Numbered from the stretch's first letter, positions 4,455 through 39,877 are shown. The stretch is 64,000 nt of DNA from Candidatus Uhrbacteria bacterium (GCA_016219925.1 JACRJU010000013.1:102566-166565), one strand, 5' to 3'. The notes: generated by a model not told the origin, from the sequence alone. Translations and numbers: made by a program.

Positions 4455-4496
4455 GTCGCGTGATCCCTCGGTCTTCTTACTTCTTGTTTCTCCCCT

Positions 4497-5085: not shown

Positions 5086-5139
5086 TTGACGCACAAGATA
5101 TAGTGGTCTATCATAAAAGGTGACCACAATATGTAGTGG
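5086..5139 (+). promoter_or_regulatory. sigma70-type promoter (TTGACG-17-TATCAT) overlapped by two tandem NrdR-box-like 16-bp palindromes
   Basis: TTGACG at 5086-5091, a 17-nt spacer, TATCAT at 5109-5114. Box 1 GCACAAGATATAGTGG (5091-5106) and box 2 CCACAATATGTAGTGG (5124-5139) each match the published NrdR consensus acaCwAtATaTwGtgt at 13/16 positions. They lie 33 bp apart, upstream of a ribonucleotide reductase gene. Confidence 0.5.
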
Positions 5140-5380
5140 GGAAAGGCGTCGTGGCCAGAGACCCTTCCAGGAGTGAATAGGAATGATCCCAACGGGATTG
5201 TTTTTAGTCTGCTTGTGTTGCTTACAAAATGGGCGAGCTATCGGCTGACGCTGCGGTCGTCACCTCACCGTACATCGGTGTACGGCTCGGTGCCGTCCTC
5301 GCGTTGTAGCGATATCTCATCCCATTTTGAAACCAACACGTCTGGTTTTGAGCTGATGTCTGCGTGCTGTCAATCTTCTT

Positions 5381-5449
5381 GCGGTTTGAGCTATGTCGGA
5401 GGGAACAGCGACGAGGAGTCCGCTGGCCCGGAGACATAGCATAAACCGC
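5381..5449 (+). repeat. structured hairpin element copy 1 (17-bp closing stem with 2 mismatches, 36-nt conserved core) inside the nrdJ 5' leader
   Basis: gcggtttgagctatgtc / gacatagcataaaccgc form the closing stem around core GGAGGGAACAGCGACGAGGAGTCCGCTGGCCCGGAG. The core matches copy 2 at 32/36 positions. Confidence 0.55.
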
Positions 5450-5495
5450 AAAACAATACCGCCAACAGTTACTTTACTCCTCTGTTACTTCCTTT

Positions 5496-8400
5496 ATGTC
5501 CGATCAACCGATCTCTAAAGTTCAAGTTTCCTCCTTGGACACGACCAATGTGGCCGACGCGGTTTGGCAATTTATGACCTCCGTAAAATCGTTACGGAAG
5601 CGCGATGGATCAGAACAAGATTTTGATGCTCGCAAACTCACACACTCCATTCGAGCCGCGCTTTTGGCCGCCGGCATGAAGCCTTCGCTTTGCGAGAAGA
5701 TCACCTCGCAAGTCATTTCTCGTCTTACACATCAGTTTGATGGCCACAGTGTGCCGACATTTGCCGATGTGCGCGAAGCCGTTGAGGTGACGCTCATCGA
5801 TAACAATCTGATTCATGTTGCAAAGAAGTACTTGTCTTTTCGCGGATCGGAATCTCGCGCGGCGCAAACCGAGCGTTATGGAAAGGGGATTACTGTTGAT
5901 CGTTTTTTCACCAAAGAAGGCGTTCATCCTTATGACGAGATCGAATGGGAAAAACGTGACGCGGTTATTTCAGGATCCAAAGGGGAGGTTGTATTTGAAC
6001 AGAAAGGAGTTGAAGTTCCAAAATCGTGGACGCAGACTGCGACGAATATCGTTGTTTCAAAATATTTTTTTGGGACGATTGGCAAAGATGATCGCGAATA
6101 TTCGGTAAAACAGTTGGTTCACCGCGTCGCATCCACCATCGCCAACTGGGGTCGCAAGGACGGCTATTTCCAAACCGGAGAAGATGCGCAACATTTCGAA
6201 GACGAGCTTCATCATATTTTGGTCAATCAAATGGCCGCTTTTAACTCACCGGTCTGGTTTAACGTCGGGACGACTCGTCCCCCACAGTGTAGCGCCTGCT
6301 TTATCAATTCTGTTGAAGATGACATGCGTTCTATTTTGAATCTGTGCGTGACGGAAGGTACGTTGTTTAAGGGAGGCTCTGGGACAGGATCCAATCTCTC
6401 TAAACTCCGCTCCAAGCACGAATACTTAAGCGGAAGCAATGGCAAAGCCTCCGGTCCGATTTCGTTTATGAAGGGTCTTGATGCTTTTGCAGGAGTGATT
6501 AAAAGCGGAGGCAAAACGCGTCGAGCGGCCAAAATGGTGATTTTGGATATTACGCATCCCGATATTGACGATTTCATCATGTGTAAGGTGGAGGAAGAAA
6601 AGAAAGCCTGGGCGCTGATGGACGCCGGATACGATGGTTCGATTGACGGTCCGGCTTATGCCTCCATCTATTTTCAAAACGCCAACAACTCGGTGCGCGT
6701 GACGGATGATTTTATGCGCGCGTACGAGACCGACGACTCGTGGGCGACTCGCGCCGTCACAACCGGCGAACCGGTGAAAACCTGGAAAGCGCGCGAGCTC
6801 ATGGATATGATGGCCGATGCGGCATGGCAGTGCGGCGATCCGGGCATTCAATATGATACGACGATCAACGACTGGCACACCTGTTCGAACACGGATCGCA
6901 TTTACGCGTCCAATCCGTGCAGTGAGTACATGTTCCTCAATGACAGCGCTTGCAACCTCGCTTCGCTTAACCTCATGAAGTTTCGCAAGCTCGTCGGGAG
7001 CGAAATGGTGTTTGATGTGGAGTCTTTCAAAAAAGCCAATGAGGTCATCATCACCGCCATGGAAATTATCGTCGGCAATTCGGTCTATCCAACCCCGGCG
7101 ATCGAACAGAACAGCTATGACTACCGCCCACTGGGCATCGGCTACGCCAACCTCGGTGCTTTGCTTATGAGCCGCGGGCTTCCGTATGATTCGGATGCCG
7201 GTCGCAATCTCGCGGCGGCCATCACGTCTTTGCAAAGTGGTCACTGTTATTATCAATCGGCTAAGATTGCGGAAAAAGTCGGACCGTTTGCTGGCTACAA
7301 AGCCAATGAAGATCCTTGTTTGCGTGTGATGCGCAAACATCGCGATGCCTCTTATGAAGTGGCCACCGATGGAGTGCCGGCGGATTTGCTTAGCGCGTCT
7401 CGCGTGGCTTGGGACAATGTCGTTGAGCAGGCGAGCCAGTATGGTTTGCGCAACGCACAAATTAGCGTGATCGCTCCGACAGGAACCATTTCTTTCCTCA
7501 TGGATTGTGATACGACTGGCGTCGAACCGGATATCGCACTTGTGAAATACAAATGGTTGGTTGGGGGTGGGATGTTCAAGATTATCAACAACACAGTTCC
7601 TGAAGTTCTGACGCGTTTGGGATACACCCAAACGGAGCGCGATGATATTTTGGCCTTCATTGAAAAAAACGACACGATTGAAGGAGCTCCGCATGTGAAG
7701 ATCGAACATTTGCCGGTGTTTGATTGTGCGTTCAAGGCGGCCAATGGCACGCGTACGATTCAGTACATGGGTCATGTACGCATGATGGCCGCGGTTCAAC
7801 CGTTTGTTTCCGGCGCCATTTCCAAAACCGTAAACATGCCCCATGAAGCGACCGCGCAAGATATTGCCGACGTTTATGTGCAAGGATGGAAGCTCGGGCT
7901 CAAAGCGATCGCCATTTATCGTGATGGCTCCAAGCGCCAGCAGGCGTTGACGACATCCAAAGAAAGCGACGCGAAGAAACAAAATGAATCTTCTATCGTT
8001 GCGAAAAGCGAACCGAAGGCGAGTGGCGAGGCCATCTCAACGGTTACGACCCAGACTGATCAACGTCTCCGCCGACACCGCCTTTCCGATGAACGACGCG
8101 CCATCACGCACAAGTTTAAGGTCGGGCCGCATGAAGGATATATCACCGTCGGTCTCTATGATGATGGAGCGCCGGGAGAAATTTTTGTCACCATGTCCAA
8201 AGAGGGATCCGTCATTAGCGGACTGATGGATAGTTTTGCAACAGCGATTTCTATCGGCTTGCAATACGGTGTTCCCCTGGAAGTCTTGGTCAATAAATTC
8301 GTTCACATGCGATTTGAACCTTCCGGATATACCAACAACCCCCAAATCCGCATTGCCAAATCCATCACGGATTACATTTTCCGTTGGCTTGCCATCAAGT

Positions 8401-8669
8401 TTTTGCCGCGGGAGTCGCAGATGACTTTGGGCATTAACACGGTGGACGAATCGCTCGACCAGCCTGTGAAAACCGCGGACGAAAAAGTGGAATTCGCGAC
8501 TCCGACCGTTCCACAACCGAAATTATTTGAACGGACACAGAGTGATCACATCCAAACTTTCGATAATCAGTCAGATGCGCCAGCCTGCGACACGTGCGGT
8601 TCGATCATGGTGCGCAATGCCGCCTGTTATAAATGTTTGAATTGTGGGGGAACGAGCGGGTGTAGCTAA
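5496..8669 (+). CDS. nrdJ: adenosylcobalamin-dependent ribonucleoside-diphosphate reductase (class II) with N-terminal ATP-cone and C-terminal Cys4 zinc ribbon
   Basis: 1057 aa. ATP-cone-like N-terminus. NSPVWFNVGT and SNPCSEYMF active-site blocks of class I/II RNR. C-terminal CDTCGS...CYKCLNCGG zinc ribbon. Confidence 0.85.
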   Translation: MSDQPISKVQVSSLDTTNVADAVWQFMTSVKSLRKRDGSEQDFDARKLTHSIRAALLAAGMKPSLCEKITSQVISRLTHQFDGHSVPTFADVREAVEVTLIDNNLIHVAKKYLSFRGSESRAAQTERYGKGITVDRFFTKEGVHPYDEIEWEKRDAVISGSKGEVVFEQKGVEVPKSWTQTATNIVVSKYFFGTIGKDDREYSVKQLVHRVASTIANWGRKDGYFQTGEDAQHFEDELHHILVNQMAAFNSPVWFNVGTTRPPQCSACFINSVEDDMRSILNLCVTEGTLFKGGSGTGSNLSKLRSKHEYLSGSNGKASGPISFMKGLDAFAGVIKSGGKTRRAAKMVILDITHPDIDDFIMCKVEEEKKAWALMDAGYDGSIDGPAYASIYFQNANNSVRVTDDFMRAYETDDSWATRAVTTGEPVKTWKARELMDMMADAAWQCGDPGIQYDTTINDWHTCSNTDRIYASNPCSEYMFLNDSACNLASLNLMKFRKLVGSEMVFDVESFKKANEVIITAMEIIVGNSVYPTPAIEQNSYDYRPLGIGYANLGALLMSRGLPYDSDAGRNLAAAITSLQSGHCYYQSAKIAEKVGPFAGYKANEDPCLRVMRKHRDASYEVATDGVPADLLSASRVAWDNVVEQASQYGLRNAQISVIAPTGTISFLMDCDTTGVEPDIALVKYKWLVGGGMFKIINNTVPEVLTRLGYTQTERDDILAFIEKNDTIEGAPHVKIEHLPVFDCAFKAANGTRTIQYMGHVRMMAAVQPFVSGAISKTVNMPHEATAQDIADVYVQGWKLGLKAIAIYRDGSKRQQALTTSKESDAKKQNESSIVAKSEPKASGEAISTVTTQTDQRLRRHRLSDERRAITHKFKVGPHEGYITVGLYDDGAPGEIFVTMSKEGSVISGLMDSFATAISIGLQYGVPLEVLVNKFVHMRFEPSGYTNNPQIRIAKSITDYIFRWLAIKFLPRESQMTLGINTVDESLDQPVKTADEKVEFATPTVPQPKLFERTQSDHIQTFDNQSDAPACDTCGSIMVRNAACYKCLNCGGTSGCS

Positions 8670-8756
8670 GGAATCACAAGGATCACGTTTCGTTCGAGCC
8701 CCTTCAGTTGATGTAACCTCCTTCAGGATGACAGGCAAAGATTTCTTCGTACGATC

Positions 8757-8833
8757 GCGATGACGATCTATCCTGCCGGAGGGAACAACGGCGACGAGTC
8801 CGTTGGCCCGGAGGCAGGATAGATCGTCATCGC
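8757..8833 (+). repeat. structured hairpin element copy 2 (perfect 21-bp closing stem, 35-nt conserved core) immediately 3' of nrdJ
   Basis: gcgatgacgatctatcctgcc ... ggcaggatagatcgtcatcgc are perfect reverse complements. The core GGAGGGAACAACGGCGACGAGTCCGTTGGCCCGGAG matches copy 1. Confidence 0.55.
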
Positions 8834-8869
8834 ACTGACAAAACACAACTTTCGTAATTCACAGCTATA

Positions 8870-8898
8870 AAGAGGGCTCATCATGTCCCTCTTTTTTG
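8870..8898 (+). terminator. rho-independent terminator after nrdJ
   Basis: aagaggg-ctcatcatgt-ccctct stem-loop followed by TTTTT. Confidence 0.55.
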
Positions 8899-39827: not shown

Positions 39828-39843
39828 TCAGACGGAACGATCC

Positions 39844-39877
39844 CCTGCCGGAGGGAACAACGGCAACGAGTTCGTCG
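39844..39877 (+). repeat. structured hairpin element copy 3 (5' two-thirds only, no closing stem) downstream of lgt
   Basis: The 21-nt stretch cctgccggagggaacaacggc is identical to copy 2 (8771-8791). The element then diverges and lacks the 3' GGCCCGGAG segment. Confidence 0.45.

What the first reader, a model, noticed from the sequence alone, without database searches (positions are those of the whole stretch)
5381..8833. Conserved 36-nt RNA core inside two long hairpins with unrelated closing stems, bracketing nrdJ
Two elements, 5381-5449 and 8757-8833, each fold as a long hairpin, with closing stems of 17 bp (2 mismatches) and 21 bp (perfect). The terminal regions share a core at 32/36 identity: GGAGGGAACA[G/A]CG[A/G]CGA[G/C]GAGTCCG[C/T]TGGCCCGGAG. 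The closing-stem sequences are completely unrelated (gcggtttgagctatgtc versus gcgatgacgatctatcctgcc). Inside the core a small helix shows a compensatory change, A11:T26 in copy 2 versus G11:C26 in copy 1. Conservation of structure with free variation of stem sequence is the signature of a functional structured RNA or protein-binding hairpin, not a simple repeat. One copy lies in the nrdJ 5' leader, about 50 nt before the ATG. The other sits immediately after the nrdJ stop, ahead of an ordinary terminator. The core contains the SD-like GGAGG. I do not recognise it as any named riboswitch or repeat family.
Basis: seen in the sequence. Interest (0 to 1): 0.78.

Follow-up and report, generated by a model that had tools for sequence, protein, structure and literature searches.

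The report
Mobile palindromic hairpin repeat of Uhrbacteria
The two hairpins around nrdJ are real and structurally conserved, but they are copies of a small, apparently undescribed insertion element scattered through the genomes of some candidate-phyla-radiation bacteria, not a control element of nrdJ.

Summary
There are two long hairpins at 5381-5449 and 8757-8833, they share a 36-nt apical core (32/36 identical), and a truncated third copy lies at 39838-39877.

With 20 further copies from CPR (Uhrbacteria-like) genomes and metagenomes, the closing stem covaries at 20 of 21 pairs while the core stays nearly invariant. Stem mismatches are G.U on the element's own strand 22:5, including in copies antisense to host genes. 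The hairpin therefore matters as a single strand.

It is not nrdJ-specific. Three syntenic relatives (80-84% NrdJ identity) lack both copies and keep only the promoter, NrdR boxes and terminator.

It behaves as a mobile repeat:
- A clean 96-nt in-frame insertion sits in an HD-phosphohydrolase gene.
- A ~119-nt insertion sits at the SecD/SecF junction.
- One copy is nested inside a larger TIR element.
- One contig holds a tandem array.
- Degenerate and truncated copies exist.
- An assembly breaks at a copy.
- No linked gene was found.

The genic copy is nevertheless more conserved than its host gene.

Best reading: a new RPE/REP/MITE-like palindromic element whose conserved apex is a recognition module. 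The mobilising enzyme is unknown. The same 19 specified module bases, on a similar hairpin, cap a conserved 5' leader in soil Actinomycetota. Rfam has no match.

The parts
5379..5451 (+). Copy 1 of the hairpin element. It has a 19-position closing stem (one G.U, one A.A mismatch) and lies in the nrdJ 5' UTR.
   Evidence: Fold z = -8.0. Inverted repeat I2, 5379-5397 / 5433-5451. CM R1 scores 83 bits. Absent from the orthologous leaders in L127, L128 and L129.
5398..5433 (+). 36-nt conserved apical module of copy 1. Layout: GGA/GGA 3x3 internal loop, GGG/CCC helix, AA/G bulge, 6-bp inner helix, 8-nt loop.
   Evidence: Exact pattern match. Fold of the core alone. Invariant columns in the 22-copy alignment A2.
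8757..8833 (+). Copy 2 of the hairpin element. It has a 21-bp perfect closing stem and lies in the nrdJ 3' UTR, upstream of the conserved terminator.
   Evidence: Fold z = -9.3. Inverted repeat I1 is 100% complementary. CM R1 scores 93 bits. Absent from L127, L128 and L129. A short-read assembly of the same organism breaks inside its left arm.
8778..8813 (+). 36-nt apical module of copy 2, the A11:U26 variant.
39838..39877 (+). Truncated, dead copy of the copy-2 subfamily. It keeps a left-arm remnant (cccctgcc) and about 30 nt of core with 3 substitutions. The 3' part of the core and the right arm are missing. It lies just after lgt.
   Evidence: Sequence. CGGAGGGAACA match. Only a partial CM hit, 9.7 bits, model positions 31-53. 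Fold not better than shuffles, z = -1.35.

Best explanation
The two hairpins are members of a dispersed family of small non-coding palindromic insertion elements in Candidatus Uhrbacteria and related Patescibacteria.

A unit is about 80-120 nt. It consists of a nearly invariant 34-36-nt apical module carried on a 16-24-bp stem. In the two insertions that could be mapped exactly, there are also 16-38 nt of extra sequence on the 5' side and only 2-5 nt on the 3' side.

Copies land in intergenic spacers in either orientation, at gene junctions, and in frame inside genes. In this genome two copies happen to sit in the 5' and 3' untranslated regions of nrdJ. nrdJ's own control elements (promoter, two NrdR boxes, terminator) are separate and are conserved in relatives that lack the hairpins.

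Shown:
- Presence/absence at orthologous sites.
- Exact insertion junctions in two cases.
- Covariation of the stem.
- A mismatch spectrum showing that the hairpin is selected on the element's own strand, whatever the direction of host transcription.

Inferred:
- The element moves through a single-stranded intermediate in which the hairpin forms.
- The conserved apex is the recognition site of the mobilising factor. An HUH-type single-strand DNA transposase (IS200/IS605-, RAYT- or IS91/Helitron-like) is the most economical candidate. A reverse transcriptase is the alternative.
- Stem sequence drifts because only pairing matters.
- Once transcribed within host mRNAs such as nrdJ, a 17-21-bp helix should act as an RNase III target or a stabilising stem-loop. 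This would be a side effect, not a dedicated nrdJ switch.
For: Family and structure:
- The degenerate core finds copies in one 'bacterium DeMMO2_27' MAG (4 contigs) and a Candidatus Uhrbacteria MAG, and in about 16 low-GC metagenome contigs.
- The window itself is Candidatus Uhrbacteria.
- In 22 copies, 20 of 21 closing-stem pairs change on both sides and 87% of cells are paired. The covariation score is 0.55, against 0.17 when shuffled and 0.10-0.14 when slid.
- Stem mismatches are G.U on the element strand 22 times, A.C 5 times and other 9 times (binomial p = 0.0008).
- In a recount with one stem trimmed, copies antisense to their flanking genes show 7 G.U and 0 A.C.

Not nrdJ-specific:
- L127, L128 and L129 have the same gene order and 80-84% NrdJ identity but no copy on either side.
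- A further 16 kb of the window organism and 21 kb of the L127 genome hold none.

Insertion events:
- A clean 96-nt (32-codon) in-frame insertion containing the whole hairpin is present in the HD-domain gene of P0121 and P0122. It is absent from P0123 and P0124, which are about 90% identical to P0121 in the protein alignment.
- A ~119-nt insertion sits exactly at the SecD/SecF junction of L134, where L131 and L132 have overlapping genes.
- Both insertions are bounded by AATC on each side.

Repeat behaviour:
- A copy is nested in the centre of a 193-nt element with 21-nt terminal inverted repeats, found in two unrelated contexts.
- L133 holds a head-to-tail array.
- L002 holds a degenerate second copy.
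- The window holds a truncated copy.
- An assembly breaks at copy 2.
- Elements are co-oriented with a flanking gene in about 17 of 22 copies and antisense in 5.
- No shared neighbour gene lies within 4 kb.
- There is no Rfam match.
Against: - No transposase, HUH enzyme, reverse transcriptase or integrase was found in about 50 window genes or next to any copy. The mobilising step is pure inference.
- The AATC repeat is seen only at the two mapped insertions, both in one genome, and is not general.
- The arms are not conserved terminal repeats and do not lie at the insertion termini.
- Copy number looks low: 2.5 copies in 80 kb of this organism.
- The orthologous genic copies L134 and L130 are better conserved (core 33/34, arms 39/44) than the host gene (82% overall, 65% at third codon positions). 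This points to selection on the inserted copy itself, which a purely selfish dead-on-arrival repeat does not predict.
- The same module occurs in Actinomycetota in a leader fixed about 80 nt before start codons. That fits an RNA-level function better than a lineage-specific transposon.
Confidence: 0.65

Rival explanations
1. It is a host-functional structured RNA module, for example a binding site for a conserved RNA-binding protein or nuclease, or an mRNA processing, stability or translation element. On this view it has been duplicated to many transcripts, and mobility is incidental.
For: - The core is nearly invariant across contigs of 38-56% GC.
- The same 19 specified bases, on the same hairpin architecture, cap a conserved ~150-nt 5' leader in soil Actinomycetota. 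That leader sits 76-83 nt before the start codon of many genes and recurs at the same gene families in different samples.
- The genic copy is conserved above coding constraint.
- There is a G.U bias on the sense strand.
- Several copies lie 10-16 nt before start codons.
- Copies 1 and 2 both lie sense within the predicted nrdJ transcript.
Against: - Five of 22 copies are antisense to both neighbours yet keep the same-strand G.U signature.
- One copy is inside a coding frame and is apparently translated through (96 nt, no stop).
- Truncated and degenerate copies are tolerated.
- Close relatives lack the copies at the same genes.
- The genes served have no common function.
Confidence: 0.25
2. 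It is an nrdJ-specific cis-regulatory RNA (a riboswitch-like leader plus a 3' element) that brackets the gene.
For: Only the positions in this window: one copy in the leader and one after the stop codon.
Against: - Both copies are absent from three syntenic nrdJ loci.
- None of the other copies with enough flanking sequence lies next to an nrdJ-like gene.
- The conserved leader holds a promoter and two NrdR-box-like repeats instead.
- There is no Rfam match.
Confidence: 0.02
3. It is a retro-mobile, SINE-like element. The hairpin would be the 3'-terminal recognition stem-loop for a reverse transcriptase. Copies would be made from RNA and would vary in how far they extend on the 5' side.
For: - In both mapped insertions the 3' side is short and the 5' extension varies (16 versus 38 nt), with a short flanking repeat.
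- The element has a strand-specific structure that tolerates G.U.
- A conserved loop with a freely varying stem is what stringent-type LINE/SINE 3' stem-loops show (PMC5135761, abstract seen, plus general knowledge).
Against: - There are only two mapped events, and the two 5' extensions are not clearly nested versions of one sequence (8 of 13 identical by eye from the sequences).
- No reverse transcriptase was found near any copy or in the window.
- No bacterial precedent is known to me.
- Head-to-tail arrays are not typical of retro-insertion.
Confidence: 0.08
4. It is an ordinary intrinsic terminator or a solitary CRISPR repeat.
For: - Some copies are flanked by A-rich 5' and T-rich 3' tracts, e.g. 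L118, L005, L041.
- The core is 36 nt long, and one contig has units with a ~68-nt period.
Against: - Copies 1 and 2 have no T-run after the stem, and copy 2 is followed by a separate conserved terminator.
- The 'spacers' of the L133 array are the same arm sequence repeated, not unique spacers.
- All other copies are solitary.
Confidence: 0.03

Closest known systems
Rickettsia palindromic elements (RPE)
   Same: Both are small palindromic repeats in a reduced-genome, host-dependent lineage. Both insert in intergenic DNA and in frame inside protein-coding genes, adding a peptide without destroying the gene (PMC10969869, read). Here this is the 32-codon insertion in the HD gene, retained in two lineages.
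   Different: - The host phylum is unrelated, and sequence relatedness was not tested.
- Units are shorter: about 80-120 nt, against about 150 bp for RPEs.
- Only one genic site was found among about 24 copies.
- Here the apex is conserved and the arms vary, whereas RPE families are defined by conserved sequence throughout (from memory).
REP / REPIN elements mobilised by RAYT (Y1 HUH) transposases, and IS200/IS605-derived palindrome-associated elements
   Same: - The recognition unit is a ~35-nt imperfect palindrome with bulges.
- Action is on one strand as a folded single strand, with no terminal inverted repeats in the classical sense.
- These systems have short specific flanking tetranucleotides. 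Here AATC bounds both mapped insertions.
- Mismatch tolerance is strand-specific.
   Different: - REPs are extragenic, present in hundreds of copies, carry a conserved 5' GTAG, and are conserved in the stem.
- REPINs are doublets of inverted REPs.
- IS200/IS605 ends carry two different subterminal hairpins.
- Here there is a single hairpin with a conserved apex and a variable stem, copy number is low, one copy is genic, and no Y1 gene was found.
Bacterial MITEs such as Correia/NEMIS and ERIC
   Same: These are non-coding, dispersed and insertion-polymorphic. They nest into one another, form long hairpins in transcripts and can alter mRNA fate. Correia arms are cut by RNase III (PMC10969869).
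   Different: MITEs are defined by conserved terminal inverted repeats matching a parent IS, and by target-site duplications. Here the arms differ from copy to copy, do not lie at the insertion ends, and no parent IS is known.
Integron attC sites
   Same: Both are recombination substrates recognised as a folded single strand, by structure and not sequence. This explains free stem variation and strand specificity.
   Different: In attC the conserved boxes are at the base of the stem and the apex is variable, which is the reverse of this element. No integron context or integrase is present here.
IS91 / Helitron-type rolling-circle elements and stringent LINE/SINE 3' stem-loops
   Same: Both have a subterminal hairpin a few nucleotides from the 3' end, a variable 5' part, and recognition of loop plus pairing instead of stem sequence.
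   Different: The resemblance is in anatomy only. No Rep/helicase or reverse transcriptase was found, and only two insertions are mapped.

Membership tests
MITE (miniature inverted-repeat transposable element) | Small, non-coding, multi-copy and dispersed | tested here: met
   Units are 80-120 nt. One MAG holds at least 5 copies, the window holds 2.5, and about 16 metagenome contigs hold further copies.
MITE (miniature inverted-repeat transposable element) | Presence/absence at orthologous sites (evidence of insertion) | tested here: met
   Seen on the nrdJ flanks, in the HD gene and at the SecD/SecF junction.
MITE (miniature inverted-repeat transposable element) | Conserved terminal inverted repeats at the element ends, matching a parent IS | tested here: not met
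   The arms differ between copies. In both mapped insertions the hairpin is offset from the 5' end by 16-38 nt. No parent IS was found.
MITE (miniature inverted-repeat transposable element) | Target-site duplication | tested here: inconclusive
   AATC lies on both sides of the two mapped insertions, both in one genome. It is not a general flank feature.
REP / REPIN-RAYT | Imperfect palindrome of 20-40 nt with a conserved 5' tetranucleotide, extragenic, in hundreds of copies | tested here: not met
   The core is a 36-nt imperfect palindrome. However, one copy is genic, density is about 1 per 30 kb, and there is no GTAG.
REP / REPIN-RAYT | Cognate RAYT (Y1 transposase) gene in the genome, typically flanked by REPs | not testable with these tools
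   None was found within 4 kb of copies or in the 64-kb window. Whole genomes could not be scanned.
Rickettsia palindromic elements | In-frame insertion into protein-coding genes with the reading frame kept open | tested here: met
   A 96-nt, 32-codon insertion with no stop is kept in two lineages.
Rickettsia palindromic elements | Sequence membership in one of the RPE families of Rickettsia | not tested
   No RPE sequences were compared. The host phylum is different, so only the behaviour is claimed to be similar.
IS200/IS605-type single-strand elements | Strand-specific folded hairpin as the recognised substrate | tested here: inconclusive
   G.U to A.C is 22:5 on the element strand, whatever the host gene direction. 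This is compatible with single-strand DNA or RNA.
IS200/IS605-type single-strand elements | Two distinct subterminal hairpins (left and right ends) and a TnpA gene or donor | tested here: not met
   Each unit has only one hairpin, and no TnpA was found.
Named structured RNA family (Rfam 15) | Match to a curated covariance model | tested here: not met
   There were no relevant hits at gathering score or at E<=10, in the window or in 14 related loci.
nrdJ cis-regulatory leader | Conserved at orthologous nrdJ loci | tested here: not met
   Absent from L127, L128 and L129.
CRISPR repeat | Array of repeats separated by unique spacers | tested here: not met
   Copies are solitary. The one array (L133) repeats the same arm sequence between cores.
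Intrinsic terminator | Stem-loop followed directly by a U-tract | tested here: not met
   There is no T-run after copy 1 or copy 2. Some other copies do have one.

The most novel reading that the evidence does not exclude
The 34-36-nt module (GGA/GGA internal loop, GGG/CCC helix, AACA bulge, short hairpin) is an ancient, cross-phylum recognition domain.

In Patescibacteria it would be the business end of a new class of non-autonomous single-strand mobile element. That element would be Helitron-, IS200- or SINE-like, with a structure-read, sequence-free stem.

In soil Actinomycetota the same module would be the sensor or binding domain of an undescribed global 5' leader that sequesters the ribosome-binding site of dozens of housekeeping genes.

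One conserved protein or ligand would read both.
Probability: 0.15. Interest if true: 0.8.

Novelty: new variant of a known kind. Interest (0 to 1): 0.5.

Why it matters
Small palindromic repeats are known from many bacteria. I found no description of one in candidate-phyla-radiation bacteria, in Rfam or in the searchable literature.

This family has an unusual anatomy. The apex is conserved and the stem is free to vary as long as it pairs, and pairing is selected on one strand only. That makes it a clean natural case of structure-based recognition of a single-stranded nucleic acid.

It also shows that these very small genomes tolerate, and even conserve, an in-frame hairpin insertion in an enzyme gene.

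In practice:
- The covariance model built here can flag such copies, so that they are not mistaken for gene-specific riboswitches or small RNAs.
- It explains assembly breaks in CPR metagenomes.
- It gives a handle (the 36-nt module) for fishing out the unknown partner protein.

The Actinomycetota leader that shares the module may be a separate, larger discovery.

Tried and rejected
- **Rfam.** Searches at gathering and at E<=10 on the window, the nrdJ region, 14 related loci and one high-GC locus gave only tRNAs, RNase P and chance hits.
- **Viral contigs.** The module pattern gave 0 hits.
- **Arms copied from flanking target DNA.** Tested by aligning each left arm to 200 nt of both flanks against shuffles. 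There was no consistent signal, only a nearby imperfect direct repeat of the left arm for copy 1 (5341-5359). The HD insertion shows that both arms arrive with the element.
- **Linked gene.** All-against-all BLASTP of ORFs within 4 kb of copies found no shared family. Pfam on about 50 window genes found housekeeping genes only.
- **Frequency of translated copies.** The protein database was searched with concatenated six-frame peptides of the core. This was unproductive (one hit), although that hit revealed the tandem array L133.
- **L003 and L046 as orthologous copies.** Rejected. Only a 193-nt unit is shared, which revealed the nesting in a larger element with terminal inverted repeats.
- **AATC as a general flank motif.** Not general.
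- **Unbiased high-GC copies lacking the exact pattern.** nhmmer found none in the held loci. The invariance of the module in that class is therefore partly imposed by the search pattern.
- **Resemblances recalled from memory and rejected by reading the sequences.**
  - K-turn: the required register breaks the closing stem.
  - SRP RNA helix 8: the 11:26 covariation fixes a different register.
  - tRNA T-loop, 16S helix 45, CsrA GGA sites, hammerhead core: partial matches only.
  - Inverton: a 35-bp invertible segment is too short.
- **Intron-like excision.** Judged unlikely, because the genic insertion is a multiple of three with no stop codon.


Full report
**1. Observation**

The degenerate 36-nt core occurs exactly twice in the window, at 5398-5433 and 8778-8813 on the + strand. 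None is expected by chance.

Both copies sit at the apex of long hairpins that fold far better than shuffled sequence: z = -8.0 and -9.3. The arms are unrelated in sequence. The cores differ at four positions, and positions 11 and 26 change together (G:C versus A:U).

The proposed third copy near 39844-39877 is only a 5' fragment of the copy-2 type. The flanked gene is a class II ribonucleotide reductase with ATP-cone and TSCPD domains. Rfam has nothing at these sites.

**2. Relatives**

A scan of one genome per species found the exact degenerate core in four contigs of a MAG called 'bacterium DeMMO2_27' and in a Candidatus Uhrbacteria MAG. Every hit had its own long closing stem.

The hits sort into three groups:
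- About 16 low-GC contigs carry hairpins like the window's.
- About 70 high-GC soil contigs carry a different, larger element that has the same module at the apex of a hairpin.
- About 25 are chance matches inside genes.

Viral contigs gave none. The window's NrdJ is 100% identical to a protein of a Candidatus Uhrbacteria bacterium on a 282-kb contig.

**3. Structure**

In an alignment of 22 low-GC copies (A2), I tested a structure with four parts: the closing stem, a GGA/GGA loop, a GGG/CCC helix with an AA/G bulge, and a 6-bp inner helix.
- 20 of 21 closing-stem pairs show changes on both sides, and 87% of cells are paired.
- The covariation score is 0.55, against 0.17 after shuffling and 0.10-0.14 when the partner is slid by 1-3 columns.
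- The inner 11:26 pair is G:C in 10 copies, A:U in 5 and G.A in 7.

Many stems share outer GGAGCG..CGCTCC ends and inner CATGTC..GACATG ends and vary in between. Others, including copy 2, are entirely different.

Stem mismatches are G.U on the element's strand 22 times, A.C 5 times and other 9 times (p = 0.0008). A recount by orientation, with one stem trimmed, gives 21 G.U against 5 A.C. It shows that the bias holds in copies antisense to their neighbouring genes (7 versus 0). The hairpin is therefore selected as a single strand of fixed polarity, and host transcription does not set that polarity.

**4. Not an nrdJ element**

Three contigs share the window's gene order (exonuclease, nrdJ, hypothetical, TrwB-like ATPase) and have 80-84% NrdJ identity. 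The covariance model built from A2 finds no copy in them. Their intergenic regions are shorter.

The upstream alignment shows what is conserved (and for the sequence):
- a promoter-like TTGACG-17-TATCAT at 5086-5114;
- two 15-nt repeats at 5092-5106 and 5125-5139, with the look and spacing of NrdR boxes (identified from memory of the consensus, not tested);
- a small hairpin with a T-run at about 5186-5205, shared with L127 and L128 but not L129.

Downstream, only the terminator at about 8869-8897 is shared.

The window-specific DNA upstream of nrdJ holds copy 1 plus a second, unrelated 125-nt imperfect hairpin at 5215-5339. A further 16 kb of the window organism and 44 kb in total of the 82%-identity relative contain no copy.

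**5. Evidence of insertion**

*(a) HD-domain gene.* In contig L068/L134 the element lies inside an HD-domain phosphohydrolase gene. Close homologues, about 90% identical to P0121 in the protein alignment, lack exactly 32 residues. The DNA alignment shows a clean 96-nt insertion carrying 16 nt, the whole hairpin and 2 nt. Neither arm is native, so the stem arrives with the element.

*(b) SecD/SecF junction.* In the same contig a second copy sits where relatives have overlapping genes. The insertion is about 119 nt: a 38-nt 5' extension that supplies a new SecD stop codon, the hairpin, and 5 nt. Both insertions are bounded by AATC on each side. This is not a general feature of other copies.

*(c) Nesting.* L003 and L046 share only a 193-nt unit with 21-nt terminal inverted repeats and the hairpin at its centre, in otherwise unrelated DNA.

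*(d) Tandem array.* L133 holds three head-to-tail units. One of them has about 95 nt inserted into its core.

*(e) Decay.* L002 has a second, slightly degenerate copy, and the window has a truncated one.

*(f) Assembly break.* A short-read assembly of the window organism ends inside the left arm of copy 2.

*(g) Orientation.* About 17 copies are co-oriented with a neighbouring gene and 5 are antisense.

*(h) No linked gene.* No gene recurs within 4 kb of copies. About 50 window genes are housekeeping, with no transposase, reverse transcriptase or integrase.

**6. Evidence of constraint**

The core is nearly invariant across contigs of 38-56% GC. The genic copy is orthologous in L134 and L130.
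- The host gene is 82% identical in DNA, and 65% at third codon positions.
- The core is 33/34 identical, the arms 39/44 and the 5' extension 11/16.

The hairpin is therefore kept by more than coding constraint, at least in that case. The 96-nt length and the open frame argue that it is translated through and not spliced out.

**7. Mechanism**

What is shown:
- The element is an inserted, dispersed repeat.
- Its hairpin is selected on its own strand.
- The apex is the conserved part.

From this I infer that it propagates through a single-stranded intermediate in which the hairpin forms, and that the apex is what the mobilising factor reads.

The anatomy of the two mapped insertions is a hairpin a few nucleotides from the 3' end, a variable 5' part, no terminal inverted repeats and a flanking tetranucleotide. 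This fits HUH-type single-strand DNA transposition best (IS200/IS605, RAYT, IS91/Helitron). An RNA-copying route is the alternative. No enzyme was found, so this step is inference with low confidence.

In the nrdJ mRNA both copies are predicted to be transcribed in sense. A 17-21-bp helix should be a substrate for RNase III or a barrier to exonucleases, as shown for Correia elements (PMC10969869). This was not tested here.

The SD-like GGAGG is unlikely to be a ribosome-binding site. Only 7 of 34 genes in the window have any such motif.

**8. The Actinomycetota element**

The high-GC hits come from soil Actinomycetota. A 90%-identity cluster mate of one downstream protein is annotated from an Actinomycetota MAG. 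They form a ~150-nt unit:
- a 12-bp outer helix (TCGCGTTCCTGG / CCAGGGGCGCGA);
- hairpin 1, with the module at its apex;
- hairpin 2;
- a purine-rich stretch and the start codon directly after the outer helix.

The start codon lies 76-83 nt after the module in most loci. The genes are diverse housekeeping genes, and several gene families recur in different samples. The stems show conserved G.U pairs and compensatory changes.

The model built only from the low-GC copies scores these elements 30-46 bits over its full length, though much of that score is imposed by the search pattern. No pattern-free copies were available to test how conserved the module really is in this class. Rfam has no match.

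This raises the possibility that the module has an RNA-level role, which is the main rival to the purely mobile reading.

**9. Limits**

- Gene calls around copies are my own ORF calls.
- Only two junctions are exact, and both are from one genome.
- Whole genomes could not be scanned.
- No expression data were available.
- The literature library contained no description of such an element in these bacteria. That is weak evidence of novelty.

Noticed in passing
window 5215-5339: A second, unrelated long imperfect hairpin lies in the nrdJ leader just upstream of copy 1. It has 19-nt outer arms that are 89% complementary and a 20-nt inner pair. It is absent from the relatives and unique among all sequences held.
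   Followed up: partly
window 5086-5139: A promoter-like TTGACG-17-TATCAT overlaps two 15-nt repeats (CACAAGATATAGTGG and CACAATATGTAGTGG, 33 nt apart) that look like NrdR boxes. They are conserved in L127, L128 and L129. This is the likely real control region of nrdJ.
   Followed up: partly
window 5150-5205: A conserved leader segment ends in a small hairpin (ATCCC-AAC-GGGAT) followed by TGTTTTT. It is shared with L127 and L128 but not L129, and could be an attenuator or leader element of nrdJ.
   Followed up: no
L006-L125 (about 70 loci, e.g. L014 3250-3400): A ~150-nt two-hairpin element closed by a 12-bp outer helix occurs in soil Actinomycetota. The same GGAGGGAACA..GGCCCGGAG module sits at one apex. 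The start codon of many different housekeeping genes lies 76-83 nt after the module. It is not in Rfam and may be an undescribed global 5' leader.
   Followed up: partly
L003 4215-4407; L046 457-651: A 193-nt element with 21-nt terminal inverted repeats (GGTCGTTYGCATCCTCTGTTC) carries the hairpin at its centre. It occurs in two otherwise unrelated contexts. A single related terminal repeat is present in L118.
   Followed up: partly
L133 120-430 (- strand): A head-to-tail array of three hairpin units has a period of about 68 nt, with right arms shortened to 10 nt. One unit has about 95 nt inserted inside its core. A gene caller had read the array as a 163-aa protein.
   Followed up: partly
window, upstream of most start codons (e.g. 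4472-4496, 5471-5495): Shine-Dalgarno-like motifs are rare (7 of 34 genes). Many leaders are pyrimidine-rich instead (..ctcccct ATG, ..cttccttt ATG).
   Followed up: no
L134 11649-18373: A block of Fic, RadC, DNA methylase, Vsr, UvrD-like helicase and unknown genes lies between the HD gene and mnmA. Those two genes are adjacent in L131, L132, L135 and L136. It is probably an inserted defence or mobile island.
   Followed up: no
L134 2319-2391: Another long, nearly perfect hairpin with an unrelated sequence (GGTAGCCGCAGGCTTTAGCCTGC...) lies between a DUF1653 gene and secD. This suggests further palindromic repeat families in these genomes.
   Followed up: no
NrdJ homologues P0004, P0011, P0031, P0068, P0072: Several close Uhrbacteria NrdJ homologues are 1363-1427 aa long and carry intein/LAGLIDADG domains (PF14528, PF14890). 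The window's NrdJ has no intein.
   Followed up: no
window 5341-5359: An imperfect direct repeat of copy 1's left arm (GGTTTTGAGCTGATGTC versus GGTTTGAGCTATGTC) lies 22 nt upstream of it. It may be a remnant of an older copy or of a duplication.
   Followed up: partly
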